Of a DNA stretch of 64,000 nucleotides, positions 14,543 through 46,651 are shown in pieces. The stretch's first letter is position 1, and the number at the start of each line of letters is the position of its first letter. The position numbers and the translations under genes are program-made. The notes below the pieces were generated by a model that saw nothing but the letters and a program-made list of their open reading frames with translations, was not told the origin of the DNA and ran no database searches. This stretch comes from Patescibacteria group bacterium (GTDB lineage Bacteria > Patescibacteriota > Gracilibacteria > UBA1369 > PNNO01): the NCBI GenBank assembly GCA_042568575.1, contig JBHPIO010000003.1, forward strand, positions 63,387 through 127,386, written 5' to 3'.

Positions 14543-16186
14543 ATGGAACAAAAGCGGTGCACAGATTGTGGAAACAGTTTTACAATCGATGACGATGAGC
14601 TAGAGTTGTATGAAAAGTACGATATGCCGCCTGAAGATATTTGCTTTAGATGTTCTCAAATGCATCGACTTAGTTTTAGAAACGAAAGGGTTTTGTATCA
14701 AAGGAAGTGTGATTTTTCGGGAGAGTCTATTCTTTCGATTTATTCGCCAGATAGTCCATATAAAGTTTATAAAAACACTCATTGGTATGGCGATAAGTGG
14801 GACGCATTAGAGTATGGTCGTGATTTTGATTTTAATCGGTCTTTTTTTGAACAATTTAAAGAATTACAATTGGAGGTTCCTCGTCTTGCTTTAATTAATG
14901 CTAGAGCCGAAAACAGCGATTACTGTAATATGACGTGGGGGAATAAAAATTGCTATTTGGTTTTTGGCGGAGATTTCAATGAAGATGTTCAGTGTGGGAC
15001 TTTATGTATGTACAACAAAGACTGTGTTGATGTGGATTTAAGTGATAAAAATGAGGTTTGTTATTTTATGGGTGATTCTTATAACTGTTATGGATGTCAG
15101 TATACGTTTGATTCTAAGAATTGTACTGACTGCTTCTTTATAAGTGATTGTATTGGGTGTTCGGATTGTATTTTGTGTACGAATTTAGTTAAAAAGTCGT
15201 ACTGTATTTTAAATAAACAGTATTCAAAAGAAGAATATTTTGAGAAAAAAGCCGAACTTTTGGATGGAAGTTATAGCAAAATGAAAGAAAATTTCAAAAA
15301 ATTGCTCGAATTACGAAATGAAAGAATTGTTAAGTATTTTCACGGAGTTAATTGTGAGAATTGTACTGGAGATTACATAAATAATTCGAAAAATTGTATA
15401 AATTGTTACAACATTGGTGATAGTGAGGATCTCCGAAATTGCATTTTAGTAATAAATGGGAAAGATATTTTTAATGCTTCATATATAGGACATAAAACAG
15501 AAGCATCTTATGGGTCTGTTGCAACAGTAACAGCTAATTTTGTGAATAATACTTATTTTTCTTTTGATTGTAACAATATTGATTATTCTGAGCAGATGCA
15601 AAATAGTGAAAACTGTTTTGGGTGTAATGGTTTGAATCATAAAAAGAATTGTATTTTGAATAAACAATATTCTGAGGATGAATATAAAGAGATGCGGAAA
15701 AAAATTATTGAACATATGAAAAAAACAGGGGAATGGGGGAAGTTTTTCCCTAAAAACTTGGGATGTTTTGCATATAATGAAGGTACAGCTCATCAATATT
15801 TTCCTTTAAAGAAAGAGCAAGCGTTAAAGTTCGGTTATAGGTGGAAAGAGGAGGATAAACGTGAATATAAGCCGGCAACATTTACTCTGCCGGATAGTAT
15901 TAAAGAAGTTCCAGATTCTGTTGTGGATGAGATTTTTGCTTGTAGTGATTGTGGAAAAAACTACAAAATAAACGCGGCTGAATTGAAGTTTTATAGAAGG
16001 TTCAATATACCTGTTCCGCACGAATGTTTTGAGTGCAGGCATAGAGCAAGATTGAATTTAAGGACACCTTTGCATCTTTGGGATAGAAGTTGCGGAAAAT
16101 GCGGTGCTGAGTTTAAAACGACGTATTCAGAAGATCGTCCTGAGCAAGTTTATTGCGAAAAATGTTACCTTGAAGAAGTCGTTTGA
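14543..16186 (+). CDS. Cys-rich Zn-ribbon/solenoid protein, paralog 2
   Basis: Same scaffold motifs as paralog 1; second N-terminal Zn site degenerate (CDFSG...VYKNTH). Confidence 0.9.
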   Translation: MEQKRCTDCGNSFTIDDDELELYEKYDMPPEDICFRCSQMHRLSFRNERVLYQRKCDFSGESILSIYSPDSPYKVYKNTHWYGDKWDALEYGRDFDFNRSFFEQFKELQLEVPRLALINARAENSDYCNMTWGNKNCYLVFGGDFNEDVQCGTLCMYNKDCVDVDLSDKNEVCYFMGDSYNCYGCQYTFDSKNCTDCFFISDCIGCSDCILCTNLVKKSYCILNKQYSKEEYFEKKAELLDGSYSKMKENFKKLLELRNERIVKYFHGVNCENCTGDYINNSKNCINCYNIGDSEDLRNCILVINGKDIFNASYIGHKTEASYGSVATVTANFVNNTYFSFDCNNIDYSEQMQNSENCFGCNGLNHKKNCILNKQYSEDEYKEMRKKIIEHMKKTGEWGKFFPKNLGCFAYNEGTAHQYFPLKKEQALKFGYRWKEEDKREYKPATFTLPDSIKEVPDSVVDEIFACSDCGKNYKINAAELKFYRRFNIPVPHECFECRHRARLNLRTPLHLWDRSCGKCGAEFKTTYSEDRPEQVYCEKCYLEEVV

Positions 16187-16238
16187 GTACTAGGTACTCT
16201 CATGCGATTAGCTTTAACAAGCCATTTCATAGCGAGTA

Positions 16239-16697
16239 CTAAGTACTACTTAAATTTGGCGTAACCATAAACCGCACGCTCCAGTTTCCGTCTTTGTCTT
16301 TTTTCAGACAAACAATTCCGCCTTGCTGGAATGTGATAACTGGTTTTTCTGCGTTTCCGGTAAGAAGAAGTGAAGAAAGCTTTTGCATGAATGGGAGATG
16401 ACCAACAAGCATTAATCCATCTTGTAATTGGTCGACCCAAATAGTCACATCATCCATTGGCTTTAGGCCTTCTTTTTCTTCAAGTTGGCCTTCTGGGAGG
16501 AGATGTTTTGCAAAGATCTCAGCGGTTTGTTTTGCGCGCAGTTTAACGCTGTGGAACATTGCATCAACTTTTATTCCTTCTTTTGCGGCGTATGAAGCGA
16601 CTTTTTCACAGTCAGAACGTCCTTTGTCAGACAAACCTTCTTGCGGATCAACATCTTCCGTAAGTTGATTACCGTGTTGTACTAAATAGATTTTCAT
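16239..16697 (-). CDS. sixA: Phosphohistidine phosphatase SixA-like
   Basis: MKIYLVQHG, LSDKG, HSVKLRAKQTAE, LMLVGHLP; start ATG 16697. Confidence 0.85.
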   Translation of the reverse strand: MKIYLVQHGNQLTEDVDPQEGLSDKGRSDCEKVASYAAKEGIKVDAMFHSVKLRAKQTAEIFAKHLLPEGQLEEKEGLKPMDDVTIWVDQLQDGLMLVGHLPFMQKLSSLLLTGNAEKPVITFQQGGIVCLKKDKDGNWSVRFMVTPNLSST

Positions 16698-16829
16698 AGT
16701 ATGATTATACCCTTCTTTTTTTAACTTGTAAAAAAGAGTATAATTCGCCCAGACACGAAGCAAAGCTGAGTGTCCTGCTGAGCTAAGGCGAAGCGTAAAC
16801 GTGAGCGAAGCGAACACCTTATTGAAATT

Positions 16830-18479
16830 ATGGAAAAACATTCGTGCAAAAATTGTAGTAGCAGTTTTGAAATCACAAAAGATGATGTGGAGTTTTATGA
16901 TAAGTTGGCGATTCCTTCGCCGACCTTTTGTCCTGATTGTCGTTTGCAGCGGCTTTTATCGTGGCGAAATGAGAATACTTACTACAGTCGCACATGCAAT
17001 AAGTGTGAATGCAAAGTGATTTCTGTGCATTCGCCTGATCAACCTTATCCGATTTATTGTAATAAGTGTTGGTGGAGTGATGACTTGTATGCGATTGATT
17101 ACGGACGGGATTTTGACTTTGATCGTCCTTTCTTTGATCAGTTCATCGAACTTCAAAAAGATGTTCCACAAATTGCAATGATGAATGATAACGGAGTAGC
17201 GAGCGAGAATTGTGAGTATTGTCAGGATTTTGCGTTTGGGAAAAATTGCTATCTAGTGACTGGAAGTTGGAAAATTCGTGATTCTTTTTATAGCAATAAT
17301 ACAAATCATGTTCAGGACGTTGTTGACTGTTCGTCTGTGAATCTTGAGTCGGAACTTGTTTATGAATCTGTGCATTCGCAGAAGTTATACAATTGTTCTT
17401 TTATGAATGTTTCGACAAATTGTACTGACTGTCATTTTGGATACGATCTAAAGGGCTGCAAGGATTGTTTTGGTTGTATAGGGCTGCGGCAAAAGCAGTA
17501 TTTCATTTTTAATGAAGCGCACACGGAAGAGGAGTATCGTGAAAAAATGTCGAAAATTGATTTAGGATCTTACGAAGGTCTCGAAAAAGTGAAAAAAGAT
17601 TTTGCAGATTTCATTTTGAATTTTCCGCGAAAGCATATTAATCAGATTAACTGTGAAAATTGTATTGGTGATAATTTATATAATTGCAAAAACACAGTTG
17701 GTTTTGATTGTTTTCATGCAGAGGGTTGTAAATATTTCTATAAAGGAGATCATCCGCAGTTTTGCTACGATATTTATCAAAGTGGGAACCCACAGTGGTG
17801 CTGCGAGTCTATAACTCCTGATGATTCTTTTATGACTGCGTACAGTTTATGGTGTTGGAAGGATAAGCATGTTTTTTATAGTGATAACTGTCATTCGTCT
17901 GAACATTTGTTTGGGTGTATCGGTTTGCGTCGTCAAAAACATTGTATTTTGAATAAAAAATATTCAGAGGAAGAGTATGAAGATTTGAAAGCGCGCATTA
18001 TTGAACATATGAAAAAGACTGGAGAATGGGGGCAGTTCTTCCCAGTTGAGAAATCTCCGTTTGGATACAATGAAACGGTTGCTCAGGATTATTTTCCTTT
18101 AACTAAAGAGCAAGCAGTAGAAAAAGGTTACAAATGGAAAGACATCGATCCAAAAAATTATCAAGAATCAACATACAAAATACCAGATGGTATTCACGAT
18201 GCGCCAGATTCAATTGTTGATGAGGTTCTTGCGTGCAGTGATTGTAAGAAAAATTATAAAATTATTCGTGGCGAGCTTGCGTTTTACAGGAAAATGGATT
18301 TGCCGATACCTGAAAAATGCCCTGACTGCCGTCGTTTAGATAGAATGAAACTTCAAACACCGAAAAAGTTGTGGAAAAGGACGTGTCACAAGTGTGGAAT
18401 TGAAATTCAAACTGCTTTTGCGCCTGATAGGCCTGAAAATGTGTACTGCGAGCAATGTTATTTAAAGGAAGTTGCTTAA
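16830..18479 (+). CDS. Cys-rich Zn-ribbon/solenoid protein, paralog 3
   Basis: Same scaffold; all N-terminal CxxC pairs intact. Confidence 0.9.
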   Translation: MEKHSCKNCSSSFEITKDDVEFYDKLAIPSPTFCPDCRLQRLLSWRNENTYYSRTCNKCECKVISVHSPDQPYPIYCNKCWWSDDLYAIDYGRDFDFDRPFFDQFIELQKDVPQIAMMNDNGVASENCEYCQDFAFGKNCYLVTGSWKIRDSFYSNNTNHVQDVVDCSSVNLESELVYESVHSQKLYNCSFMNVSTNCTDCHFGYDLKGCKDCFGCIGLRQKQYFIFNEAHTEEEYREKMSKIDLGSYEGLEKVKKDFADFILNFPRKHINQINCENCIGDNLYNCKNTVGFDCFHAEGCKYFYKGDHPQFCYDIYQSGNPQWCCESITPDDSFMTAYSLWCWKDKHVFYSDNCHSSEHLFGCIGLRRQKHCILNKKYSEEEYEDLKARIIEHMKKTGEWGQFFPVEKSPFGYNETVAQDYFPLTKEQAVEKGYKWKDIDPKNYQESTYKIPDGIHDAPDSIVDEVLACSDCKKNYKIIRGELAFYRKMDLPIPEKCPDCRRLDRMKLQTPKKLWKRTCHKCGIEIQTAFAPDRPENVYCEQCYLKEVA

Positions 18480-18481
18480 GA

Positions 18482-18757
18482 TTATCCCATTTCTTTCCAA
18501 AAACATTCTTGGCAGTAGACAGTATATTTGCTGTCTTGAGAATATGTGGAGATGATGTTTTTTTTGCATTTATCACAAGTTCTTCGGTGTAACTTTCGTT
18601 CGTTTCTTTGCAAGAGTCTTCTCTTTTGCCTGCATTCGGGACAATTTGAAGGGACCGGGAGTTTTTTCTTTGTATAAAACATCTTTTCTTGAGGGATAAT
18701 CAAGAATTGCCTTTTGCATTCTGCGCAGGTTATTTTGTCTGATGTTGTTGTATTCAT
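18482..18757 (-). CDS. Stand-alone Zn-ribbon module (zf-trcl-like plus CxxC-x17-CxxC)
   Basis: CAEC..FY..CPECRQKRR..RNER..CDKC-17 aa-CQEC; ATG 18757 overlaps the upstream TGA (ATGA). Confidence 0.85.
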   Translation of the reverse strand: MNTTTSDKITCAECKRQFLIIPQEKMFYTKKKLPVPSNCPECRQKRRLLQRNERKLHRRTCDKCKKNIISTYSQDSKYTVYCQECFWKEMG

Positions 18758-19692
18758 AGTCCGTAGGTTATTACTTCTGGATAAGTTGATTTGTACCATT
18801 TGCACCATGTTCCGTCAGCCTTCATTTCTTCAATAATCTCTTTAACTTTTTTGTGATAGTCTTCTTCGCTATATTGTTCGTTTAAAATTTGATATTTAGC
18901 ATGATTTATTCCTACGCATCCGAAACAATCTTTGCTGTTATAAACAAGATCGCAATAAGTTAGGTCGTTTGAATACCAGCATCCGTAACAGAACATGCAA
19001 TTAGTTAAATTACCCCCGCTCATAATTTCATAGCATTGCTCTGACCATCCAAGATGGCTGCAATCAACTAGATCTTTTGAGTCATCGCAGTGGTAAACGT
19101 GCATGCAATCGTGTAATCCTTTTGAGTCATATCCTCCAAAAACCTCTTTTGAGTTATGAAGATTTTCGCCATATGCTTCTTCATTATTTCTTCCGTACAT
19201 TGCTGTTCGTGGAACGCTTGTAAGTAAAGGCTCGAGTTTTTCATAAACTTCTTTGTGGGGCATTTTTTTGAGTTCAGCGAGACGTTTTTCGTATTCCTCT
19301 TTTGTATATTGCTCATTGAAAATGCAGAATGATTTTTTTCGTAGCCCAACGCATCCGAAGCAGTTTTGTATTCCAATAGAGTGATAGCAGAAGTCGCAGT
19401 CGATAGCTTGTTCGCATTGAACGCAGTAATTACAGTTGTATGATCCAATGCAATCAACGCACTCGTAGCAGAGTTCACATTTTTCGCAGAGTGTGCAATC
19501 GACGCAATCCGTACAATAAAAAACACGGTGATTATATAAGCAGTCCTCAGATTGATAACTCGCAAAAGTCATGTAGCAGTTGTTGCTTTTTTCTGTGTAC
19601 TGGCAATATGGGCTGTTTTCGTTTTGTACACATTGAAGCCCGATGCGTGGTACTTTCTGTCGTAATTGTTCGAATTGTTCTAAGAAGCTCAT
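18754..19692 (-). CDS. Cys-rich solenoid-only protein (central part of the paralog family)
   Basis: Starts at the family FxEQFxxLxxxVP motif, has two CFGCVG..IxNEQYxxEEY-capped Cys repeat blocks, no terminal Zn modules. Confidence 0.88.
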   Translation of the reverse strand: MSFLEQFEQLRQKVPRIGLQCVQNENSPYCQYTEKSNNCYMTFASYQSEDCLYNHRVFYCTDCVDCTLCEKCELCYECVDCIGSYNCNYCVQCEQAIDCDFCYHSIGIQNCFGCVGLRKKSFCIFNEQYTKEEYEKRLAELKKMPHKEVYEKLEPLLTSVPRTAMYGRNNEEAYGENLHNSKEVFGGYDSKGLHDCMHVYHCDDSKDLVDCSHLGWSEQCYEIMSGGNLTNCMFCYGCWYSNDLTYCDLVYNSKDCFGCVGINHAKYQILNEQYSEEDYHKKVKEIIEEMKADGTWCKWYKSTYPEVITYGL

Positions 19693-19815
19693 TTGAGTAA
19701 TTATGGTGATAGTTTCATCGATTTGATTATAGCTGCTGCCTCATCGTCTGGCTAGCAGTTGTGAACGCAGCAAAATGATGTAAAATTGAATTGAAATAAT
19801 AATTAAATCTGATTA

Positions 19816-21498
19816 ATGCAGAAAAATTGCAAAAACTGTGGTAGCCAGTTTACGATTGAAGATGAAGATTTAAAGTTCTACGACAAAATTTCACCGACTT
19901 TTGATGGAAAGAAGTTTCAAATTCCACCACCTACTCATTGTTCTGATTGCAGGCAACAAAGGAGGCTCGCTTGGCGTAACGAGAGAACTCTTTATAGACG
20001 TAAGTGTGATGCAACTGGGAAGAATGTTGTCTCGGTTTTTTCATCTGACAAACCTCTGAAAGTTTATAATAACGACTATTGGTATTCTGATAAGTGGGAT
20101 CCACTTGAATACGGCATGGATTTTGATTTTAATCGGCCATTTTTTGAGCAGTTTCATGAGCTTATTGAGCAAGTTCCACAAGTTGCTCGTTCAGCGGTAC
20201 GTAATCAGAATTCCGATTACGTGAATCAATGTGGATGGTGCAAAAATTGCTATCTCATTTTTGAAGCGGACTATAATGAAAACTGCATGTACGGAAATAA
20301 CGTTTATGACTCCAGAAGCTCCATGGATTTTTTACATATTTTTGGTTGTGAACTTTGTTATGAGTGTGTGAATTGTACAAACTGTTATAATTTGAAATTT
20401 AGTCAGAATTGTCAGAACTGTTCCGATTCATATTTCTTAAAAAATTGTATAGGTTGCAAAAATTGTTTTGGATCAATTAATTTACGAAACAAAGAATTTT
20501 ATTTCTTAAATGAAAAATGTACAAAAGAGGAATATGAACAGCGATTAAAATCGATTTCATTAGGGGAATTTTCGACTTTAAATAAATTAAAGGAAAAATT
20601 TACCGAACATACATCGGCATTTCCAAATAAATATATGGAAGGAACACAGAATGAAGATTCAACAGGTGATTATTTGAACAATACGCAGCGATGTAAAGAT
20701 TGTTATGATCTTGTTAACTGTCAAGACTGCAAATATGTTTTCAACTCACGAAATGTGAAAAATGTTTATGATATGACTGTTTTTGGATCTAAACATGGCG
20801 TTGAATTTTGTTATGAAAACCATGAGATAGGTGATGGGGTGCGTAATGTGTGTTTTTCTGATCAAGCTTGGAGCGGTATATACGATATTTACTATTCCAA
20901 ATTGTGCATGAACAATAGCCATGATTTATTTGGATGCGTAGGTCTTAAACATGCGAAGTATTGTATCCTTAATAAGCAGTATTCTGAGGAGGAATATGAA
21001 AAACTTGCCTCAAAAATAGTTGAACACATGATTAAAACAGGTGAGTGGGGAGAATTTTTACCTGCTTCAATGTCTCCATTTGCATATAATGAAACAATTG
21101 CGCAGGATTATTATCCGCTTAAAAAAGAAGAGGCTTTGCAGAAAGGATACAGGTGGAAGGAGCCTGATCAAAAAGAATATCAGCCTAAAACATATGTAAT
21201 TCCAGATGATATTAAAGAAGTTCCGGATTCAATAATGAATGAAATTTTGGCGTGCAGTGATTGTGGAAAAAATTACAAAATTATTCAACAGGAGTATGAT
21301 TTTTATCAAAAATTCAATCTCCCAATCTCAAGAAAATGTCCAGATTGCAGACACAAAGATAGAATGAAATTAAGAAATCTACGAAAGTTGCATAATGGAA
21401 ATTGCGATAAATGTAATGCGGATATTCAAACTACCTATTCACCAGATCATTCGGAAAAGGTATACTGTGAACGTTGCTACCTCGAATCGGTAGTTTAA
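19816..21498 (+). CDS. Cys-rich Zn-ribbon/solenoid protein, paralog 4
   Basis: Same scaffold; small insertion SPTFDGKKFQI; CDATG variant. Confidence 0.9.
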   Translation: MQKNCKNCGSQFTIEDEDLKFYDKISPTFDGKKFQIPPPTHCSDCRQQRRLAWRNERTLYRRKCDATGKNVVSVFSSDKPLKVYNNDYWYSDKWDPLEYGMDFDFNRPFFEQFHELIEQVPQVARSAVRNQNSDYVNQCGWCKNCYLIFEADYNENCMYGNNVYDSRSSMDFLHIFGCELCYECVNCTNCYNLKFSQNCQNCSDSYFLKNCIGCKNCFGSINLRNKEFYFLNEKCTKEEYEQRLKSISLGEFSTLNKLKEKFTEHTSAFPNKYMEGTQNEDSTGDYLNNTQRCKDCYDLVNCQDCKYVFNSRNVKNVYDMTVFGSKHGVEFCYENHEIGDGVRNVCFSDQAWSGIYDIYYSKLCMNNSHDLFGCVGLKHAKYCILNKQYSEEEYEKLASKIVEHMIKTGEWGEFLPASMSPFAYNETIAQDYYPLKKEEALQKGYRWKEPDQKEYQPKTYVIPDDIKEVPDSIMNEILACSDCGKNYKIIQQEYDFYQKFNLPISRKCPDCRHKDRMKLRNLRKLHNGNCDKCNADIQTTYSPDHSEKVYCERCYLESVV

Positions 21499-21508
21499 GG
21501 CTTTTTAT

Positions 21509-23173
21509 ATGGAAAAAATCGTTTCCACAAAAAATTGTAAAAATTGTACGAAAGAATTTTCCGTTACCGATAGAGATCAAAACTTTTACAAAAAAATGGC
21601 TGTGCCTGAGCCTACGTTTTGCCCTGCATGCAGAATGCAGCGGCGGATGGCTTTTCGAAATGAAAGAAATTTGTATAAACGAAAATGTGATTTTTCCGGG
21701 AGAGACATAATTTCAGTCTATCCACCAACAAGTAAATACAAAATATACGATCAAAAAATTTGGTGGAAAGACGATTGGGATCCAATGGAGTATGGTCGCG
21801 AGTTTGATTTCGATAGACCGTTTTTTGAGCAGTTTAATGATCTTTTGTTGGAAGTTCCACGACAAAGTCTGCAGCTTGTGAATTGTGAAAATAGTGATTA
21901 TGGAAATGATTGTGATGGATCTAAGAATTGCTACTTATGTTTTAACTCAGGAACAGTTGAAGATAGTTATTATTGTACGACTTATGGAAGGAACAGTAAG
22001 AATTGTATGGATATGTTTTGGAGTATTACGTGCGAGCTTTGTTATGAATGTTCAAAAGTTACACAAGGTTATCATTCATTTTGGTGTTTTAATTGTACAA
22101 ATGTAACCGATTGTTATTTTTGCGATGATTGTAGAAGTTGTGAGTATTGTTTTGGATGCGTTGGACTTCGTCATAAGAAATATCATATTTATAATAAAAA
22201 AGTTTCAAAAGAAGAGTACGAAAATTTTATCAAAAACTTTCACTTCACTTATGATGAAATTGAAAAAGCAAAAGTAAAATTAAAAGAATTGCGCTTAACT
22301 GTCCCTTATAAAAACTTACAAATTGTAAGTAGTGAAGACTCGGAAGGGGATTTTCTCGAAGGATGTAAAAACTGCACTGAATGTTTTGATGTAATCATGT
22401 CGGCTGATTCAAAATATGTTTGGGATGGATTAATAGATGGTGGGTATGATTGTTTTAATACAGGTGTAGATACGAAATTCGTTTATGAATGTTTAGTAGC
22501 TTATTACGCAAACAATATTAAATTCGCCAATATTTCTTTTTATTGTTCAGACGTACAGTATTCTGATTCTGTCTATAATAGTGAGCATTTGTTTGGTTGC
22601 GTTGGTTTGAGACATAAAAAATACTGCATTTTAAATAAACAATACACAAAGGAAGAGTATGAAAAATTGCTTCCAAAAATTATTGAACACATGAAAGAAA
22701 CTGGTGAGTATGGGGAGTTTTTTCCAGCTTCATTAAGTTCATTTGGATACAATGACACAATGGCCCAAGAATATTTTCCACTAACAAAAAAAGAAACTGA
22801 TAAGCAGGGATTCAATTGGAATGATTATGTGCAACCAAAGCCAGAAGGTATTAAAACAATTAAAGCGAAGGATTTGCCGGAAAGTATTAGCGATATTACG
22901 GACGATGTTTTGAATTGGGTAATTGAATGCGAAAAAGACGGAAAACCATTTAAAATTATTCCGCAGGAGCTTAAGTTTTATAAAAAAGAAGGATTGTCGT
23001 TGCCGCATTTGTGCCCTGATTGTAGGCACTATGAAAGAAAGTGGAAAGTTAATCCTCGAAAATTGTATGACAGAACATGTGGCAAATGTGGAGAGGATAT
23101 GAAAACTACTTTTGCACCGGATAGGCCGGAGAAGGTATACTGTGAATCCTGTTATCTTAAAGAAATCGTTTAA
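21509..23173 (+). CDS. Cys-rich Zn-ribbon/solenoid protein, paralog 5
   Basis: Same scaffold; CDFSG variant and C-terminal CEKDG variant. Confidence 0.9.
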   Translation: MEKIVSTKNCKNCTKEFSVTDRDQNFYKKMAVPEPTFCPACRMQRRMAFRNERNLYKRKCDFSGRDIISVYPPTSKYKIYDQKIWWKDDWDPMEYGREFDFDRPFFEQFNDLLLEVPRQSLQLVNCENSDYGNDCDGSKNCYLCFNSGTVEDSYYCTTYGRNSKNCMDMFWSITCELCYECSKVTQGYHSFWCFNCTNVTDCYFCDDCRSCEYCFGCVGLRHKKYHIYNKKVSKEEYENFIKNFHFTYDEIEKAKVKLKELRLTVPYKNLQIVSSEDSEGDFLEGCKNCTECFDVIMSADSKYVWDGLIDGGYDCFNTGVDTKFVYECLVAYYANNIKFANISFYCSDVQYSDSVYNSEHLFGCVGLRHKKYCILNKQYTKEEYEKLLPKIIEHMKETGEYGEFFPASLSSFGYNDTMAQEYFPLTKKETDKQGFNWNDYVQPKPEGIKTIKAKDLPESISDITDDVLNWVIECEKDGKPFKIIPQELKFYKKEGLSLPHLCPDCRHYERKWKVNPRKLYDRTCGKCGEDMKTTFAPDRPEKVYCESCYLKEIV

Positions 23174-24832
23174 ATGAGTGAAAAAGTCATTGGGACAAAG
23201 CCATGTTCAAAGTGCGGGGATGAATTTACGATTACGAATCAAGATCGAACGTTTTATGCAAAACTGGATGTTCCGGATCCAACTCATTGTCCGGTTTGTC
23301 GAAATAAACGCAGAATGATGTGGCGGAACGATCGGACTTTTTATAAACGGAAATGTGATATGACGGGAAAGTCGATGATTTCAATTTATCCTAAAGATGC
23401 GCCTTTTCCGGTTTATCATCCGGAGCAGTGGTATAGCGATAAGTGGGATCCGATGGATTACGGTCAGGATTTTGATTTTGATCGACCTTTTTTCGAACAA
23501 TTCAAAGAGCTGCTTTTAAAAGTTCCGCATTTGGGGATTGATATCGTTAATTGTGAGAATAGTTTTTATTGTAATTATTGCGGTGATGACAAGAATTGCT
23601 ATCTTGATATTGCAGGTGAGGGAAATGAAGACTGCTACTTTAATCTTTTTACAAAATTTTCGAAAGATACAGCTGACTGCACTTTTGTTTATAACTGCGA
23701 GCTCTGTTATGAGTCGATAAATTGCTACAATTGCCACAATGTTCGCTATTCAATGTATTTGGACAACTGTAACGATTGTGCGTTTTGTTATGACATGAAA
23801 GGCTGCAGCGATTGTCTATTTTCGTATAATTTGAGGCACAAAAAATATCATATTTTCAATCAGGAATATTCAAAAGAGGATTATGAAAAGAAATTGGCCG
23901 AGCTTCAGTTTGGTTCGTTTCAGGCGCTTCAGGTGGAGATAAAAATGTGGCAAGATATGATGAAGCAGGCGATTCATCGTGATATGTACAATTTGAATTC
24001 GGAAAATTGTACCGGAAATAATATTAAAAATTCGAAAAACTGCCACGATGCTTATAACGTCGTAAATTGTGAAGATTCTAAGTTTTTGTATGATGTTTTG
24101 GATGCGAAAGACTGCTACGATATGAATTATTCTTTGTATAAACCTGAGGTTGCCTATGACATTATTAGTACCTTAAGCATGCGGTTTTCTGCGTTTTGTA
24201 TGGCGAGTCATTATTGCAATAATTCTTTTTATTGTGACACATGTAATAACTCATCTAATCTTTTTGGATGCACAGCTTTGAATCAGAAAAAATACTGCAT
24301 TTTGAATAAACAATATACAAAAGAGGAGTACGAAAAAATGGTTGAGAAGATAAAAGAGCATATGAAAAAAACAGGAGAGTGGGGAGAGTTTTTCCCGGTT
24401 GAGATTTCGCCTTATGGATATAATGAAACAGTTGCAAATGAGTATTGTCCGCTAACAAAAGAGGAAGCAGGGAAGAAGGGATATCCTTGGAAAAACCTTG
24501 AAATGGCTGGATATAAACTGCAAAAATACGAAATTCCAGATTATATTGATGATGTTTCTGATGGAATTACAGATGAAGTTCTTGCATGCTCAAGTTGTAT
24601 GAAAAATTTTAAAATAATTACTCAGGAGCTTGGATTTTATAGAAAAATGAAGCTTCCTATTTCGCGAAAATGTCCCGATTGCAGACATCGAGATAGGATG
24701 GAAAGGCGTCATCCGCGTAATTTATGGATGCGTCAGTGTGTGCGGTGTAATAAAGAAATTCAAACTCCTTATACTCCGAAAAGATCGGAAAAGATTTATT
24801 GTGAGGAGTGTTATTTGAAGACAGTTTATTAA
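23174..24832 (+). CDS. Cys-rich Zn-ribbon/solenoid protein, paralog 6
   Basis: Same scaffold; directly abuts paralog 5 (TAA ATG). Confidence 0.9.
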   Translation: MSEKVIGTKPCSKCGDEFTITNQDRTFYAKLDVPDPTHCPVCRNKRRMMWRNDRTFYKRKCDMTGKSMISIYPKDAPFPVYHPEQWYSDKWDPMDYGQDFDFDRPFFEQFKELLLKVPHLGIDIVNCENSFYCNYCGDDKNCYLDIAGEGNEDCYFNLFTKFSKDTADCTFVYNCELCYESINCYNCHNVRYSMYLDNCNDCAFCYDMKGCSDCLFSYNLRHKKYHIFNQEYSKEDYEKKLAELQFGSFQALQVEIKMWQDMMKQAIHRDMYNLNSENCTGNNIKNSKNCHDAYNVVNCEDSKFLYDVLDAKDCYDMNYSLYKPEVAYDIISTLSMRFSAFCMASHYCNNSFYCDTCNNSSNLFGCTALNQKKYCILNKQYTKEEYEKMVEKIKEHMKKTGEWGEFFPVEISPYGYNETVANEYCPLTKEEAGKKGYPWKNLEMAGYKLQKYEIPDYIDDVSDGITDEVLACSSCMKNFKIITQELGFYRKMKLPISRKCPDCRHRDRMERRHPRNLWMRQCVRCNKEIQTPYTPKRSEKIYCEECYLKTVY

Positions 24833-24893
24833 AAAGCAAACTTGACTTTTGTCTCAAAATATAGTTAAATTAAACATCCCGTATCAATTTTTT

Positions 24894-25664
24894 ATGGCTA
24901 TCTATTCAAAATTAAGAAAACTACTAACGGATGCCGGCTTAACAGAAGCCGAGATCACTGTGTACTCTGAACTTTTGAAAAATCCTGCGCAAACAAAGTG
25001 GGAGATTGTTGAGCGTACAGGCTTAAATAGAAATGCAGTTTATAGAGCCTTTGAAACTCTTGAGACACACATGATGGTTGAGTCGACTGATGAGGGATTT
25101 AAAGCATTGTCGTTGAAGGTTTTGGTTAGTAAGCTTCATAATTCGGGGCGAAAACTTGGAAAACTTGCTAATAAAATTAAGCATGTTGCGCCATTTTTAA
25201 ACTCATCGCATGAAACTATTGAAGAATTTGAAACTTTTTATACTCCAGAGCAAATAGCAGAGCCATATATTTTTATGGCGGAGCATAAATACGGAACGAA
25301 TTTGGATTTTGGTGATTTTGAAAACTTTATTCCGACAATTGGAGGCATTCCGATTGCTTGTAAATTTAGAAAAGAGAGAGCGAGGAAGTCTGGTCACCAT
25401 GCAATTTGTACAACAAATGGAAAATATACAGGATATTTTTGTACTAATGATGCAAAGCAACGTTTTAAAACTCAAATCGATCGATTGAATATAGATTTTG
25501 GAGGAACTTTTGTGATTTTTTCGGATTCGAGTGATTATGTTTTGTTTAATCATTTTGCAGACCCGAACAATCAGTGTTCTGTTCTTGTAAAATCAAAGCC
25601 AGTTGCAGATATTCAGCGTGCTCAGTTTGATATGTTTTCTCAAAAACTTGAGAACTTGCAGTAG
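24894..25664 (+). CDS. TrmB-like winged-helix transcriptional regulator
   Basis: AGLTEAEITVYSELL...EIVERTGLNRNAVYRAFETL, C-terminus IQRAQFDMF; homologous to 13646-14416. Confidence 0.75.
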   Translation: MAIYSKLRKLLTDAGLTEAEITVYSELLKNPAQTKWEIVERTGLNRNAVYRAFETLETHMMVESTDEGFKALSLKVLVSKLHNSGRKLGKLANKIKHVAPFLNSSHETIEEFETFYTPEQIAEPYIFMAEHKYGTNLDFGDFENFIPTIGGIPIACKFRKERARKSGHHAICTTNGKYTGYFCTNDAKQRFKTQIDRLNIDFGGTFVIFSDSSDYVLFNHFADPNNQCSVLVKSKPVADIQRAQFDMFSQKLENLQ

Positions 25665-25700
25665 GTTTTTTGGCTTTTAAGAGCGGTTTTGAAATTTTAT

Positions 25701-25717
25701 GCGTCAAATTTTGACGC
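25701..25717. promoter_or_regulatory. Perfect inverted repeat, candidate operator
   Basis: GCGTCAAA-T-TTTGACGC between the TrmB-like gene and paralog 7. Confidence 0.45.
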
Positions 25718-25769
25718 TTTTTTTGTTCCGTTTTATTTTGTGATCTGTCTAATTAAATAATCAAAAGTT

Positions 25770-27410
25770 ATGCTTAATAAATCATGCAAAAATTGTGGAA
25801 ACAATTTTGAAATCACAGATAATGATCTTCAATTTTATAAAAAAATAGATGTAACGGAACCAACTTTCTGTCCGACGTGTCGTTTGCAAAGAAGGCTAAC
25901 ATTTAGGAATGAGAGAAATCTCTTTAAGAGAAAATGTGACATGTGCAGCAGAGAAATTTTTACTTTCTACGATCAAAATGTTGTGTTTCCGGTTTACTGT
26001 ACTGAGTGCTGGTGGGGCGATAAATGGGATTCACTTGAGTATGGAAGAGAGTTTGATTTTAAACGCCCCTTCTTTCCTCAATTTCAGGAATTAATGAATG
26101 AAGTTCCAAAAATAGGAATGCTTTCATTTCAAAATGAGAATTCTCCGTACAATTCGCTACTAGCTTTTAGCAAAAATACTTATATGAGTCCGGGAAGTTA
26201 CTGTATGGAGGATTCATATTATGTTCGAAAGAGTCAGTATAGTAAGGATTGTTTGAACAGCCTTTTTCTTGATCATTGCGAGCTAGTTTCTAACAGTGTG
26301 AATTCGCAAAATTGTTACAATTGTGATCATATTTTGAATTGTAGAAACTGTTTTGATTGTATGTATCTTGCAGATTCCTTCTCGTGCAAGAATTGCTTTA
26401 TGTGTAGCGGAATTTCGAATAAAGAATTCTATTATAAAAACCAAAGATATTCGGAAGGTGATTATCGAGCTATCGTAAAAGACCAATTGGAAAGAGATCC
26501 AAAAGATTTAATGGATGAGTTTTTAGAATTTAATACGACTGTTCCAAAAAGATTTCAAAATCAGATTAATTGCGAGAATTCTTCAGGAGATTATATTCAG
26601 AATTCTAGTAATGCGCGTGAATGTTATGACTGTTTTGATGTCGAAGATTCAAAGTATTTATTTGAATGTGTGAATGTGAAGGATTCGATGGATGTGAGTG
26701 ATCATGATAAAGAAGTTGAGCTTTGTTATGAACTTTGTACGGGAGGTGAAAAGAGTTACAAGCATATTCTTTCGGTGGCTTCTATTGCATGTCCAAACAC
26801 GAGCTATCTTTATTCTTGTTATTATCTTTCTGACAGCTTTGGGTGTGACGGGTTTCACTCAAAACAAAAGAACTGTATTTTGAACAGAAAGTATTCGGAG
26901 ACTGATTACAATTTGCTAAAAGGTAAGATAATTGAACATATGAAGGCATTAGGGGAGTATGGGGAGTTTTTTCCTAGTTCAATTTCGCCTTTTCCGTACA
27001 ATCACACAATTGCACAGGATTATTTTCCTCTTACAAAAGAGTTTGCTTTAGAAAAGGGATATAAATGGAAAGATGAAGATGAGTCTCTTTATAAGCCGGC
27101 TACTTTTCAGCTTCCCGATGATATTAATACAGTTCCAAATTCAGTTACTAAGGAAATTCTTGAATGTGAAGATTGTTCAAAAAATTACAAAATAATTTCT
27201 CAGGAGTTGAATTTATGTAAAAGGACGCACAGATCTCTTTCAAAGAAATGCCCTGATTGTAGGCATAGGCTGCTTTTGTCTTTAAAGAATCCAAGGAAGC
27301 TTAACGATCGTGAGTGTGATAGATGCGGAGATCCAATTCAAACAACTTACACTGAAAATAGGCCAGAAAAGGCTTATTGTGAGAAGTGTTATCTCCAGCA
27401 AATAGCATAA
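25770..27410 (+). CDS. Cys-rich Zn-ribbon/solenoid protein, paralog 7 (closest to paralog 1)
   Basis: Shares ENSPYNSLLAxSKNTYMSPGSY, YVRKSQYS and CDGxHSKQK with paralog 1. Confidence 0.9.
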   Translation: MLNKSCKNCGNNFEITDNDLQFYKKIDVTEPTFCPTCRLQRRLTFRNERNLFKRKCDMCSREIFTFYDQNVVFPVYCTECWWGDKWDSLEYGREFDFKRPFFPQFQELMNEVPKIGMLSFQNENSPYNSLLAFSKNTYMSPGSYCMEDSYYVRKSQYSKDCLNSLFLDHCELVSNSVNSQNCYNCDHILNCRNCFDCMYLADSFSCKNCFMCSGISNKEFYYKNQRYSEGDYRAIVKDQLERDPKDLMDEFLEFNTTVPKRFQNQINCENSSGDYIQNSSNARECYDCFDVEDSKYLFECVNVKDSMDVSDHDKEVELCYELCTGGEKSYKHILSVASIACPNTSYLYSCYYLSDSFGCDGFHSKQKNCILNRKYSETDYNLLKGKIIEHMKALGEYGEFFPSSISPFPYNHTIAQDYFPLTKEFALEKGYKWKDEDESLYKPATFQLPDDINTVPNSVTKEILECEDCSKNYKIISQELNLCKRTHRSLSKKCPDCRHRLLLSLKNPRKLNDRECDRCGDPIQTTYTENRPEKAYCEKCYLQQIA

Positions 27411-27414
27411 CTGT

Positions 27415-27505
27415 TTGACAAAGTGGCGAATTTAACTCTAAAATCGAGCTGTTGATTTGTTCGATTGCAATTTTTGGAATACGGACAAATTACGATCATT
27501 GATAA
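27415..27505 (+). promoter_or_regulatory. Sigma70-type promoter followed by a hairpin and boxA-like motif
   Basis: TTGACA 27415, 18 bp, TAAAAT 27439; hairpin ATTTGTTCG/CGGACAAAT 27456-27490; CGATCATTGATAA 27493-27505. Confidence 0.55.
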
Positions 27506-28080
27506 CCCGCTTATGCCTAATTAATTTCAGTTGATGGGTTCTGTTTGTGCAAAATGTTTTTATTTTGTTTAGGCAAAGCCCATCTACTAAATAGATGGAA
27601 ACAGGATCGAAGGGTTCGCCTGTGTGAATGACCAGAAAGCCGTTGTAAAGTAGACATTTATTGGCTTCTCCATTCGTTTACGTAGGGAACCCTTCTACTT
27701 TTTTTCGAAAGGTGGCTTTGCACTCCGCCGTTTGGCTTCCTCCTGAGTGCTAAGTTGCCAGGTTGCAGGCGTGAGTATTGCGTGGTTTACCCTCCATTAA
27801 TTGCAATGGAAAACCGCTCACGCCTGCGACCGCTATTTTTTTGTTTCCAGGATTAGAGATGTCACTTGTTATACGATGGCTACCCAACCCATCACGCCCA
27901 TCTTTGCCCTGTCTTCGCCTAGTCCCAAACTGCTAAGCGTTTAAGATAGATTACTTTATCCACGCATTGACCCAAGGGCAGATAACAGTCACATCTCAGC
28001 GCAGGCACGGCTAAGACCGTGCCTGCGCAACTTTTCTTCTTAGACATAAGCGGGCCTTTCTTATTCTCCAGAGAGGCCAG
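27450..28080 (+). ncRNA. Candidate large structured ncRNA A (family unknown)
   Basis: No ORF of 60 aa or more; closing helix 27506-27520/28040-28054; nested helices 27596-27603/27842-27849, 27609-27617/27687-27695, 27761-27775/27817-27831, 27856-27872/27982-27997, 27999-28010/28017-28028. Confidence 0.7.
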
Positions 28081-28155
28081 TGTTATTTGGATGATGTTGT
28101 GTAGGCACCAATGGTGCTGTAAAATTCATTACTGATCTATTAGTAACGATTTTTT

Positions 28156-28575
28156 ATGAAAAAATTTCTTATAATCCTGTTGGTTTTAGTTATTGGTGCG
28201 GGTTTGGCGTATTTTTTGTTAATGAATAATAGCCCTCAGGAACCTGCGATAGAGGATCCTCAGTATCTTTCTTACTCGGAATCGCTTTATTCCGATCTTA
28301 TTGGAAATAATAAGCCTTTTACACTTTTCTTTTATGACAGTAACGACGAGGCTTTGAAAACATTGAGGCAAAGTTTAAAAGATGACATAGAGAATTATCC
28401 GATTGGTTCAAAAATAATTGAAGTTGATTTTGGTGTGGATACAGAAATTCAAAATCAATATGAGGTTACTGAGGCGGGTGTGTTTATTTCAATTAATTCT
28501 AAAGGTAAGGTTATTGAGACTTTTAGTTCTGTAGATGTTGAGGAGATAAAAACGGCTGTATCTTCGTCTTTATAA
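28156..28575 (+). CDS. Membrane-anchored thioredoxin-like protein lacking CxxC
   Basis: N-terminal TM helix; KPFTLFFYDSNDEALKTL where WCxxC is expected; IIEVDF..QYEV..FISINSKGKVI fits the Trx fold pattern. Confidence 0.6.
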   Translation: MKKFLIILLVLVIGAGLAYFLLMNNSPQEPAIEDPQYLSYSESLYSDLIGNNKPFTLFFYDSNDEALKTLRQSLKDDIENYPIGSKIIEVDFGVDTEIQNQYEVTEAGVFISINSKGKVIETFSSVDVEEIKTAVSSSL

Positions 28576-28646
28576 GTTATCTTTAGTTGACGTAATGTGC
28601 CTTAAGTGTTAGCATACGCTCCAATTTAAAATTAACCAGTTTAAAC

Positions 28647-28979
28647 ATGTTTGATAGAACTGAAAGAGATCCTGATACAGGTGTTGAAGTTGAAGCCGAA
28701 ACTGAAACTGAAACTGAAGTATCTGGAGAAGAAGGAGAACCTACGGGAGTAGATGCAATAAAAGCAAGATTTGCTAAATCCGCGGCAGCTGCAGAACCTG
28801 AAGTGGTTGCAGAACCTGAACAGGATCCACTTACTCGAAAAGAAGCTTTAGCAAATGCAGGTGCAAAAACTTCTCTTGGGGAGCCTTGGGCGCAAAAAGT
28901 AAGAAAAGGAATGCAACAAGCAGTTCAAGATCCACGATCAAGTAGAAAGGGAAAACCTGAAGATGGAGAAGAGGGATAG
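28647..28979 (+). CDS. Acidic low-complexity hypothetical protein
   Basis: 110-aa ORF with ETETETE; TTGACG upstream. Confidence 0.65.
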   Translation: MFDRTERDPDTGVEVEAETETETEVSGEEGEPTGVDAIKARFAKSAAAAEPEVVAEPEQDPLTRKEALANAGAKTSLGEPWAQKVRKGMQQAVQDPRSSRKGKPEDGEEG

Positions 28980-45727: not shown

Positions 45728-45805
45728 TGTTATTCGTTAGTGGTTTTCGCGGTTAATAATAGCAGGGTAGGGGTTGCGTGGGCAATAGGAGGTGGAAATT
45801 GTTGC

Positions 45806-45819
45806 TCCACCCAGGTGGA
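45806..45819. repeat. 14-bp palindrome TCCACCCAGGTGGA
   Basis: Identical copy at 59259-59272; variant at 56607-56620. Confidence 0.65.
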
Positions 45820-45854
45820 ATCTAAAAAGTTCATAAAACGTCCACAAAAAAAAC

Positions 45855-45952
45855 TTGACAAAACCGAAATAATAGTGCAATATGTTGTCCTCAAGCATGA
45901 AATGTGCTTTTTTGTTTAAAGGTATTGTTTCTCTTGAGTTTGATCTTTGACG
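45855..45952 (+). promoter_or_regulatory. Sigma70-type promoter followed by a hairpin and boxA-like motif
   Basis: TTGACA 45855, 17 bp, CAATAT; CTCAAG/CTTGAG stem 45890-45938; TGATCTTTGACG 45941-45952. Confidence 0.5.
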
Positions 45953-46587: not shown

Positions 46588-46651
46588 ATATGTTGATGTA
46601 TAAGTTGGAATTCTCTGTACAAAAAACCTTATAAAATAGCGAAATGTATTT

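What the first reader, a model, noticed from the sequence alone, without database searches (positions are those of the whole stretch)
27415..28080. Candidate undescribed ~600-nt multi-domain ncRNA directly after the Cys-rich array
Seen in sequence: a 745-bp intergenic gap with no ORF of 60 aa or more and a TTGACA-18-TAAAAT promoter whose -35 begins 5 bp past the last paralog's stop. A hairpin and boxA-like motif follow. A 15-bp long-range helix (CCCGCTTATGCCTAA 27506 with TTAGACATAAGCGGG 28040, one mismatch) encloses about 520 nt of nested domains: 27596/27842, 27609/27687, 27761/27817, 27856/27982 and a perfect 12-bp hairpin at 27999-28028. The mismatch in the 27761 helix is a U-G pair on the + strand, which fits the promoter direction. 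Established: rnpB is elsewhere in the window (55853-56242) and tmRNA/tRNA ends are absent. Inference: a large structured RNA on the scale of OLE/ROOL/GOLLD that I cannot assign to a family.
Basis: partly seen in the sequence, partly recalled or inferred. Interest (0 to 1): 0.85.

Follow-up and report, generated by a model that had tools for sequence, protein, structure and literature searches.

The report
Orphan structured RNA-like intergenic element
A 745-base gene-free gap holds an unusually stable, multi-hairpin fold with its own promoter and terminator, but nothing like it was found in any other genome searched, so it is a one-genome curiosity and not a demonstrated new RNA class.

Summary
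Window 27411-28155 has no ORF over 52 aa, also with TGA read as sense. It carries an 11-of-12 sigma-70-type promoter 5 bp after the upstream stop. It folds far better than shuffles (z -12.9 on +, -9.7 on -). G+C is 46% against 38% for the genome. No Rfam family matches.

The claim of a new large RNA class like OLE, ROOL or GOLLD is not supported. The element is single-copy. BLAST found nothing in 60 relatives or 400 genomes of the phylum. Two covariance models found nothing in 100 and 40 relatives. Phage, plasmid, viral and genome-contig searches found nothing real. The one same-genus genome held lacks the element and the adjacent gene at the syntenic site. Covariation therefore cannot be tested.

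The strand is not settled. Promoter, terminator, folding energy and G-U count favour +. A-rich loops and the P1 mismatch favour -. The boxA-like motif is weak.

My best reading (0.4) is a lineage-specific + strand transcript of about 590 nt, ended at the 12-bp GC hairpin. Rivals are a cis leader or insulator, and a palindromic DNA relic.

The parts
27415..27444 (+). Sigma-70-type promoter-like site, TTGACA-18-TAAAAT. The inferred start is about 27451.
   Evidence: It matches 11 of 12 positions and is the only promoter-like site on either strand of 27300-28300. It is one of 7 sites of at least 11 of 12 in the whole window, both strands. By my reading of the coordinates, several of the others lie upstream of annotated features.
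27453..27492 (+). 5' leader hairpin, A+U-rich.
   Evidence: MFE -13.3 kcal/mol, z -5.6, 0 of 200 shuffles as good.
27506..27520 (+). 5' arm of the long-range helix P1.
   Evidence: Inverted repeat I3 with 28040-28054, 15 nt, 93% complementary. The mismatch is C27516.A28044 on +.
27524..27592 (+). Domain A, a rod-like hairpin of about 29 pairs with single-base mismatches.
   Evidence: MFE -26.7 kcal/mol, z -5.9. Helices are listed.
27596..27849 (+). Domain B. An 11-bp closing helix (27596-27606 with 27839-27849) encloses three hairpins: B1 27609-27695, B2 27711-27759 and B3 27761-27831.
   Evidence: (I2, I4). z is -6.9 for B1, -3.2 for B2 and -7.6 for B3.
27856..27997 (+). Domain C, a branched domain closed by 27856-27872 with 27982-27997. 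Its predicted loops hold three CCCAA motifs.
   Evidence: (I6). z -4.35. CCCAA occurs at 27883, 27924 and 27971.
27999..28041 (+). Perfect 12-bp G+C-rich hairpin D followed by a U-rich tract. It looks like an intrinsic terminator.
   Evidence: Terminator-like site: 12 pairs, 10 of them G-C, loop of 6, tail AACTTTTCTT. z -6.3.
28040..28054 (+). 3' arm of P1.
   Evidence: I3. It lies after the U-rich tract of hairpin D.
28053..28078 (+). Second, weaker hairpin with a U-rich tail.
   Evidence: Terminator-like site with 9 pairs. z -4.0.
28156..28575 (+). Downstream gene for a 139-aa membrane-anchored thioredoxin-fold protein. No Cys-x-x-Cys motif is visible in the sequence. It is context only and is absent from the same-genus genome together with the element.
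   Evidence: Relatives match Pfam Thioredoxin and sit beside DsbD/CcdA-type genes. tblastn to the L038 thioredoxin-like gene gives E 1e-12. It was not found in G001.

Best explanation
This is a lineage-restricted (so far single-genome) transcription unit on the + strand that makes a highly structured non-coding RNA.

The proposed sequence of events is:
1. RNA polymerase starts about 7 nt after the consensus-like promoter at 27415-27444.
2. It transcribes a leader hairpin and then four stacked hairpin domains (A, B, C, D).
3. Most transcripts stop at the 12-bp G+C-rich hairpin D and its U-rich tract. This gives an RNA of about 590 nt (about 27451 to about 28036-28041).
4. Only read-through transcripts contain 28040-28054. 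Only these can close the 15-bp helix P1. P1 would then be a double-stranded site suited to RNase III-type cutting, separating the RNA from the downstream mRNA.

The same hairpins would also end transcription coming from the Cys-rich gene array.

Shown: the fold, its statistics, the signals, the lack of coding capacity, and the absence of relatives. Inferred: transcription, the two ends, processing, and any function. I think an accessory, local role (ending and insulating transcription, and yielding a stable structured RNA) is more likely than a conserved catalytic or scaffold role.
For: - The gap is ORF-free under tables 11 and 25. No Pfam match for 6 of 6 small frames.
- z is -12.85 on +. Each of the eight stretches folded alone is significant: z -3.2 to -7.6, with 0 of 200 shuffles as good in seven and 3 of 200 in B2.
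- The centroid lies close to the MFE (-246.5 against -250.9 kcal/mol).
- The gap ranks 5th of 110 gaps of at least 250 nt in excess folding energy per nt.
- G+C is 46.1% inside P1 against 38.3% for the genome. Known RNA genes are 43-52%.
- The only promoter-like site and both terminator-like sites in 27300-28300 are on +. Promoter matches of this quality are rare: 7 on both strands of the window.
- The + fold is 17 kcal/mol more stable and has 21 G-U pairs against 12 on the minus strand.
- A relative's locus (L038) has a shorter, unrelated structured stretch at the same position between a Cys-rich gene and a thioredoxin-like gene. It folds only on the sense strand (z -4.5 against -0.95) and ends in a hairpin plus U tract.
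Against: - There is no expression evidence. No sequencing run could be listed.
- No homologue was found anywhere, so there is no covariation evidence.
- The element is absent from the same-genus genome at the syntenic site.
- Predicted unpaired bases on + are U/C-rich and A-poor (A 0.26). On the minus strand they are A-rich (A 0.47), like the genome's RNase P RNA (0.51) and 16S rRNA (0.42).
- The P1 mismatch is a G.U pair only on the minus strand.
- The minus strand also folds far better than chance (z -9.7). A property of the DNA palindromes is therefore not excluded.
- The helices are long and nearly perfect, and no predicted hairpin loop is a GNRA tetraloop (my reading). From recalled knowledge, this is unlike the known large ornate RNAs.
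- The 21 against 12 G-U count is only a modest asymmetry.
Confidence: 0.4

Rival explanations
1. The structured stretch is mainly a cis element: a long 3' end for the Cys-rich gene array and a 5' leader for the thioredoxin-like gene. It ends or attenuates transcription at hairpin D and protects or processes the flanking mRNAs, and has no trans role.
For: - It sits exactly between two + strand genes, with a terminator-like hairpin 128 nt before the downstream ATG.
- Relatives L038 and G010 have a homologous pair of shorter structured elements with a hairpin plus U tract directly after Cys-rich paralogues.
- The element and the downstream gene are absent together in G001.
Against: - Thioredoxin-like homologues in 8 other genomes sit in tight operons without a long upstream gap.
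- About 700 nt is far longer than termination needs.
- Upstream regions in this genome show no Shine-Dalgarno signal and a -10-like signal close to the ATG, which suggests short or no leaders.
- A consensus-like promoter immediately before the structure suggests a dedicated transcript.
Confidence: 0.2
2. It is a DNA-level feature without RNA function: a relic of a non-autonomous mobile element or of nested inverted duplications, possibly acquired from a G+C-richer donor. The fold is then a by-product of palindromes.
For: - It has 15-bp terminal inverted repeats with one mismatch.
- It has long, near-perfect hairpins.
- Both strands fold far better than chance.
- Its G+C content is foreign to the genome.
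- It is present in one genome only and absent at the syntenic site of the same-genus genome.
Against: - It is single-copy in its genome.
- No direct repeat flanks the inverted repeats (my reading).
- The same termini at the same spacing gave one hit in genome contigs, in coding DNA of a 63% G+C genome with no internal likeness, and none in viral contigs.
- blastn found nothing in phages or plasmids.
- No transposase, integrase or reverse transcriptase gene lies nearby. I did not test this directly; it rests on the ORF list and the Pfam rows.
- The interior is a branched set of independent hairpins and not one palindrome.
- The locus order Cys-rich gene, gap, thioredoxin-like gene is shared with L038, so G001 more likely lost the segment than G000 gained it.
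Confidence: 0.2
3. The functional RNA is on the minus strand.
For: - Minus-strand unpaired bases are A 0.47, G 0.16, U 0.20 and C 0.17. This closely matches RNase P RNA and 16S rRNA of the same genome.
- The P1 mismatch is a G.U pair on the minus strand.
- z is -9.7 on the minus strand.
Against: - No promoter-like or terminator-like site lies on the minus strand in 27300-28300.
- The fold is 17 to 32 kcal/mol weaker than on +.
- It has fewer G-U pairs, 12 against 21.
- The flanking genes are both on +.
Confidence: 0.08
4. It is the first sighted member of a conserved large structured RNA class. Its relatives simply have not been sampled.
For: - Its size and multi-domain fold are on the scale of OLE RNA. 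The start of the abstract of PMC9723947, seen in the listing, gives about 600 nt for OLE.
- No known family matches.
- Sampling near this genome is thin: one other genome in the genus and 12 in the family.
Against: - Found in 0 of 60 relatives and 0 of 400 genomes of the phylum by BLAST.
- Found in 0 of 100 and 0 of 40 relatives with covariance models R1 and R2.
- Absent in the 97%-complete same-genus genome.
- The helix style differs from known ornate RNAs.
Confidence: 0.06

Closest known systems
Large ornate bacterial RNAs (OLE, ROOL, GOLLD)
   Same: It is a bacterial, intergenic, non-coding, multi-domain fold of about 550-600 nt. It is richer in G+C than its genome.
   Different: No covariance-model match even at E up to 10. 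No homologues, so no conserved nucleotides or covariation. Rod-like, near-perfect helices and no GNRA hairpin loops in the predicted fold. Of the papers on these RNAs I saw only search listings and starts of abstracts (PMC9723947, PMC12286853).
Staphylococcus aureus RNAIII-type large regulatory RNA (recalled, not from a call)
   Same: It is about 500-600 nt and made of many hairpins. Long-range helices close its domains. It has C-rich hairpin loops and is restricted to a narrow lineage.
   Different: RNAIII's C-rich loops pair with Shine-Dalgarno sequences. This genome shows no such signal: GGAG or GAGG lies upstream of 3.3% of 700 long ORFs against 8.3% in an in-gene control. No small coding frame with a family match. 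The duplex scan gave unreliable output; in it, the neighbouring genes ranked 169 to 965 of 1169.
Miniature inverted-repeat elements and similar structured repeats (Correia-, BOX- and REP-like; names recalled)
   Same: It has terminal inverted repeats of 15 bp. It is a few hundred bases long with no ORF. It is strongly folded on both strands and patchy among relatives.
   Different: It is single-copy, has no target-site duplication, and no family member was found in the genome, phage, plasmid or viral collections searched.
rRNA-operon-style unit: promoter, leader hairpin, boxA, long processing stem cut by RNase III (recalled)
   Same: A promoter and a leader hairpin are followed by a long-range helix that encloses the whole structured body.
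   Different: The boxA-like motif matches the genome's own 16S leader boxA at only 7 of 12 positions (my count). A terminator-like hairpin lies inside the stem. The body is not rRNA.
Structured element after Cys-rich paralogues in relatives (L038 10171-10471 minus strand; G010 = L066 1501-1700)
   Same: It occupies the same genomic slot directly after a Cys-rich paralogue. It is G+C-rich and folds on the sense strand. It ends in a G+C-rich hairpin plus U tract.
   Different: Those two align to each other with 75% mean column identity. They show no significant likeness to the window's element. Their covariance model R3 gives no hit in 27400-28160 among the 19 rows at E up to 10. They are 130-200 nt, not about 590 nt.

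Membership tests
Any Rfam 15 family (including OLE, ROOL, GOLLD, HEARO, raiA, group I and II introns, 6S, tmRNA, RNase P, SRP) | Match to the family's covariance model at or above its gathering score. | tested here: not met
   Whole window at gathering threshold: only RNase P RNA (55857-56234, minus strand) and one tRNA. Region 27300-28250 at E up to 10: 6 rows, all far below gathering score. The best is GcvB at 20.8 bits against 42, at 28035-28157.
Conserved structured ncRNA class (generic) | Homologues in other genomes whose helices are kept by compensatory changes. | tested here: not met
   BLAST in 60 relatives gave no alignable homologue; all non-self hits were 14-44 nt with best E 0.0027. 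BLAST in 400 genomes of the phylum gave 0 of 400 at E up to 0.001. Model R1 gave 0 of 100 relatives. Model R2 gave 0 of 40. Both models were built from this one sequence, so their reach is limited. Covariation could not be counted.
Miniature inverted-repeat transposable element | Terminal inverted repeats. | tested here: met
   27506-27520 with 28040-28054, 15 nt with one mismatch.
Miniature inverted-repeat transposable element | Target-site duplication flanking the repeats. | tested here: not met
   The flanks read TCATTGATAA on the left and CCTTTCTTAT on the right. No direct repeat is visible (my reading).
Miniature inverted-repeat transposable element | Several copies in the genome, or family members elsewhere. 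| tested here: not met
   Own genome: only the element itself plus hits of 14-40 nt with E at or above 0.008. No likeness to the other 109 gaps. The termini pattern gave one chance hit in genome contigs and 0 in viral contigs.
rRNA-type antitermination leader | A boxA sequence like the genome's own rRNA leader boxA. | tested here: not met
   The 16S leader has GTTCTTTAACA after a hairpin. The candidate GATCATTGATAA at 27494-27505 matches at 7 of 12 positions by my count.
Intrinsic terminator (hairpin D) | G+C-rich stem followed closely by a U-rich tract. | tested here: met
   12 pairs, 10 of them G-C, a loop of 6 and the tail AACTTTTCTT. The U tract starts 2-3 nt after the stem and is interrupted by C, so the site is borderline.
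Post-paralogue structured element of L038 and G010 | Match to covariance model R3, built from those two sequences. | tested here: not met
   With filters off over the whole window, none of the 19 rows at E up to 10 lies in 27400-28160. G000 has no match at E up to 0.1.
RNAIII-like regulator acting through C-rich loops on Shine-Dalgarno sites | Target mRNAs carry G-rich ribosome-binding sites. | tested here: not met
   GGAG or GAGG lies in -20 to -4 of 3.3% of 700 ORFs of at least 200 aa, against 8.3% in an in-gene control. G is only 8-18% at every upstream position.
Replication origin (considered because rnpA, yidC and jag are nearby) | A cluster of DnaA boxes. | tested here: not met
   One near-match (27956-27964) lies in the gap. 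There is no cluster among the 27 near-matches in the window. The box consensus was typed from recall.

The most novel reading that the evidence does not exclude
The element is the founding example of a fast-evolving, lineage-specific family of large structured RNAs in these small-genome bacteria. It would be made from a dedicated promoter and released by cutting of a long-range stem, as rRNAs are. The other unassigned, G+C-rich, structured gaps of this genome (for example window 45760-46650) would then be further such RNAs.
Probability: 0.1. Interest if true: 0.7.

Novelty: new member of a known kind. Interest (0 to 1): 0.35.

Why it matters
If it is transcribed and maintained, a 1.2-Mb streamlined genome is spending about 0.75 kb on a species-restricted RNA more tightly folded than most of its other non-coding stretches. 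That would suggest that small-genome, uncultured bacteria carry private large RNAs that family-based annotation cannot see. As it stands, it is one sequence with no relatives and no expression data. It cannot yet carry that weight. Its practical value is as a target for transcript mapping, and as a reminder that fold statistics alone do not define an RNA class.

Tried and rejected
Coding capacity was rejected.
- There are no long frames under table 11 or table 25.
- tblastn of nine neighbouring proteins against the gap gave a best E of 0.32.
- 6 of 6 small frames had no Pfam match.
- No remnant of the CcdA or SixA-like genes seen in L038 was found.

Known RNA families were rejected. There are no tandem repeats. 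No tRNA or tmRNA lies in the gap.

The homologue searches came back empty.
- Own genome.
- 60 relatives by BLAST, noise only.
- 400 genomes of the phylum.
- Covariance models R1 in 100 relatives and R2 in 40 relatives.
- R1 with filters off on five syntenic or array loci, best E 1.4.
- Phages and plasmids by blastn.
- Hairpin D pattern and termini pattern in viral contigs.
- Termini pattern in genome contigs gave one hit (L036). I judged it chance, because it is coding-looking DNA of 63% G+C with no internal likeness.

Protein-anchored locus searches gave little.
- With the 139-aa protein they found nothing in metagenome contigs or genome contigs.
- With the 331-aa neighbour they gave three loci. 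L038 carried the syntenic slot.

Association with the neighbouring genes was rejected.
- Thioredoxin-like gene family: homologues in relatives have no long upstream gap.
- Cys-rich arrays in general: arrays in G001 and G004 have no comparable gap.

Homology with the L038 and G010 element was rejected at the sensitivity available. A shared 9-mer after the terminator is within chance.

The idea of an anti-Shine-Dalgarno mimic (two CCTCC and three CCCAA motifs) was rejected, because the genome shows no Shine-Dalgarno signal.

The duplex scan against 1169 translation start regions gave implausibly large energies and loops. I do not trust it. In it, the neighbouring genes ranked 169 to 965 of 1169.

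An origin of replication was rejected.

Sequencing runs: none was listed and no RNA holder was listed.

I did not use the look-up of encoding contigs, which was stated to be closed.

Literature was searched twice.
- The terms 'Candidate Phyla Radiation', 'structured RNA' and 'large noncoding RNA' gave 50 papers holding at least 2 of 3 terms. In the 15 listed, the count for the first term was 0.
- 'Peregrinibacteria' with 'ncRNA' gave 0 papers.
- I read only listings and starts of abstracts. I looked at no supplements.

The genome-wide ranking has limits.
- It used only 6 shuffles per gap.
- Gaps were truncated at 800 nt.
- Two different shuffle routines were used, for 86 and then 24 gaps.
- The 705-nt gap that outranks the candidate (C1:178072-178776) was not identified.
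Full report
WHAT IS THERE

The last of six Cys-rich paralogues of about 550 aa ends at 27410. The next gene, for a 139-aa protein, starts at 28156. The 745 bases between them hold no ORF above 52 aa under table 11. With TGA read as sense, no stop-to-stop frame lying inside the gap exceeds 79 aa. Six of six small frames have no Pfam match. The neighbouring proteins leave no tblastn trace in the gap.

A promoter-like site, TTGACA-18-TAAAAT, lies at 27415-27444, beginning 5 bp after the stop codon. A match of 11 of 12 or better occurs at only 7 places on both strands of the 64-kb window. By my reading of the coordinates, several of the others lie upstream of annotated features. Examples are the site at 29151-29124 before tRNA-Glu, and the site at 16732-16704, which lies 7 nt before an ATG.

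THE FOLD

Region 27440-28090 folds to -250.9 kcal/mol on the + strand, against -168.9 +/- 6.4 for dinucleotide shuffles (z -12.85). The minus strand gives -218.6 kcal/mol (z -9.69).

- a 15-bp long-range helix P1 (27506-27520 with 28040-28054, one mismatch)
- a rod-like hairpin A (27524-27592)
- a domain B closed by 27596-27606 with 27839-27849, holding three hairpins (27609-27695, 27711-27759, 27761-27831)
- a branched domain C (27856-27997)
- a perfect 12-bp hairpin D (27999-28028)

All eight stretches folded alone (the seven sub-domains and the 3' hairpin 28053-28078) beat their shuffles, with z from -3.2 to -7.6. In seven of them 0 of 200 shuffles fold as well; in B2 (27711-27759) 3 of 200 do.

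G+C is 46.1% inside P1, against 38.3% for the genome. RNase P RNA, 16S rRNA, tRNA-Glu and tmRNA are 43-52%.

I scanned the 110 stretches of the genome that are at least 250 nt long and free of ORFs of 90 aa or more. This gap ranks 5th in excess folding energy per nt. That scan used few shuffles and truncated gaps at 800 nt.

WHICH STRAND

The evidence is mixed.

For the + strand:
- The only promoter-like site and both terminator-like sites in 27300-28300 are on +.
- The + fold is 17 kcal/mol lower for 27500-28060 and has 21 G-U pairs against 12 on the minus strand.
- The mismatch in the 27761 helix is U.G on +.
- Both flanking genes are on +.

For the minus strand:
- The P1 mismatch (C27516.A28044) is a G.U pair only on the minus strand.
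- Predicted unpaired bases are A-rich on the minus strand (A 0.47). This resembles RNase P RNA (0.51) and 16S rRNA (0.42) of the same genome. On + they are U/C-rich with A at 0.26.

I weigh the transcription signals most and favour +. The question is open.

WHAT IT IS NOT

No Rfam 15 family reaches gathering score in the window, apart from RNase P RNA (55857-56234, minus strand) and one tRNA. At E up to 10 the region gives six weak rows, none meaningful. ARAGORN and Tandem Repeats Finder find nothing in the gap.

The boxA-like motif is weak. The genome's own 16S leader has a hairpin followed by GTTCTTTAACA. The candidate motif agrees at 7 of 12 positions by my count. There is no cluster of DnaA boxes.

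IS THERE A FAMILY

I found none.
- The element is single-copy in its genome and unlike the other 109 gaps.
- BLAST gave only noise-level hits of 14-44 nt in 60 relatives, with best E 0.0027.
- BLAST gave nothing at E up to 0.001 in 400 genomes of the phylum.
- Single-sequence covariance models of 27707-27835 (R1) and 27854-28030 (R2) hit only their source, among 100 and 40 relatives.
- Phage and plasmid blastn found nothing.
- Exact patterns for hairpin D and for the P1 termini found nothing in viral contigs.
- The termini pattern gave one match in 185,579 species genomes (L036). It lies in coding-looking DNA of 63% G+C, shows no internal likeness, and I regard it as chance.
- No sequencing run could be listed.

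SYNTENY

The one other genome of the genus held here is G001, which is 97% complete. Its YidC is 85% identical to that of G000. G001 has the order Cys-rich paralogue, about 150 bp, acidic-protein gene, tRNA, and so on to jag and yidC.

Window 28574-28649 aligns to the G001 promoter region of the acidic-protein gene. About 27411-28575, which holds the element plus the 139-aa gene, has no counterpart.

A family-level metagenome locus (L038) has Cys-rich paralogue, a 300-nt gap, thioredoxin-like gene, CcdA-like gene. Its thioredoxin-like protein matches the window's 139-aa protein at E 1e-12. The layout 'paralogue, gap, thioredoxin-like gene' is therefore older than G000, and G001 more likely lost the segment.

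The L038 gap folds only on the sense strand (z -4.5 against -0.95) and ends in a hairpin plus U tract. It is homologous to an element between two paralogues in G010, with 75% mean column identity. Neither resembles the window's element. Their joint model R3 does not hit 27400-28160.

Thioredoxin-like homologues in other relatives lack a long upstream gap. Arrays in G001 and G004 lack such a gap too.

HOW IT MOST LIKELY WORKS

My best reading (0.4) is a dedicated + strand transcript that starts near 27451. It forms the leader hairpin and domains A to D as it is made. It mostly ends at hairpin D and its U-rich tract, giving an RNA of about 590 nt.

In that product the 3' arm of P1 is missing. 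P1 can therefore form only in read-through RNA. There it would be a double-stranded processing site of the kind that flanks rRNAs (recalled knowledge). The same hairpins would stop transcription arriving from the paralogue array. All of this is inference from sequence signals.

I considered a regulatory role through the C-rich loops (CCTCC twice, CCCAA three times). I set it aside because this genome shows no Shine-Dalgarno signal (3.3% of 700 ORFs against 8.3% in the control).

The rivals are:
- a purely cis leader or insulator (0.2)
- a palindromic or mobile DNA relic (0.2)
- a minus-strand RNA (0.08)
- an unsampled conserved class (0.06)

COMPARISON WITH KNOWN THINGS

In size and domain count the element resembles OLE, ROOL and GOLLD RNAs. 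Of the papers on these I saw only search listings and starts of abstracts. In hairpin style and narrow distribution it resembles RNAIII (recalled). Its 15-bp termini recall a miniature inverted-repeat element.

It fails the testable membership criteria of each:
- no model match
- no Shine-Dalgarno targets
- no target-site duplication and no further copies

VERDICT

This is a real, very stable, unassigned, probably transcribed structured element. It is known from one genome only, has no covariation or expression evidence, and is missing in the sister species. I rate interest at 0.35.

Noticed in passing
window 45760-46650: A second ORF-poor, G+C-rich (about 0.47-0.49) stretch folds well on + (z -7.8 for 45740-46670). 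It has a TTGACA motif near its start. It has no Rfam match at gathering score, no likeness to the finding, and no BLAST hit in 40 relatives.
   Followed up: partly
own genome, e.g. G000:C30:36479-36997, C19:3135-3604, C24:1562-1994, C12:65481-66125: I took 20 other gaps, mostly the best-folding ones plus three long G+C-rich ones. Seven hold a tRNA or tmRNA. Thirteen have no Rfam match at gathering score. The genome may hold several unassigned structured stretches.
   Followed up: partly
window 14543-27410: An array of six paralogous Cys-rich proteins of about 550 aa on the + strand. Their only Pfam hint is a weak treble-clef zinc-finger match at the N terminus. A TrmB-like regulator gene is embedded at 24849-25664, and a split copy lies on the minus strand (18482-19692). 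Best matches in the same-genus genome are only about 40% identical, while YidC is 85% identical.
   Followed up: partly
L038 10171-10471 (minus strand); L066 1501-1700 (G010:C4); L072 (G010:C4:19136-19320): A structured element of 130-200 nt with a G+C-rich hairpin plus U tract directly follows Cys-rich paralogues in two relatives. The two align with 75% mean column identity. By my reading, the closing helix differs at two pairs in a compensatory way. Model R3 finds a weaker second copy in G010 (E 6e-4).
   Followed up: partly
whole genome (upstream regions of 700 ORFs of at least 200 aa): There is no Shine-Dalgarno signal: GGAG or GAGG in 3.3% against 8.3% for an in-gene control. Yet the 16S rRNA 3' end carries CCTCC. 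T peaks at -15 and A at -11 and -10, which looks like a -10 box close to the ATG and hints at leaderless or short-leader mRNAs.
   Followed up: partly
window 28156-28575: The 139-aa thioredoxin-fold protein shows no Cys-x-x-Cys motif where its L038 relative has one, and it has no CcdA/DsbD-type partner gene beside it.
   Followed up: partly
window, whole: Near-matches to the DnaA-box consensus number 27, against 17.2 +/- 3.9 in shuffles (1 of 100 shuffles reach 27). They are scattered and not clustered.
   Followed up: no
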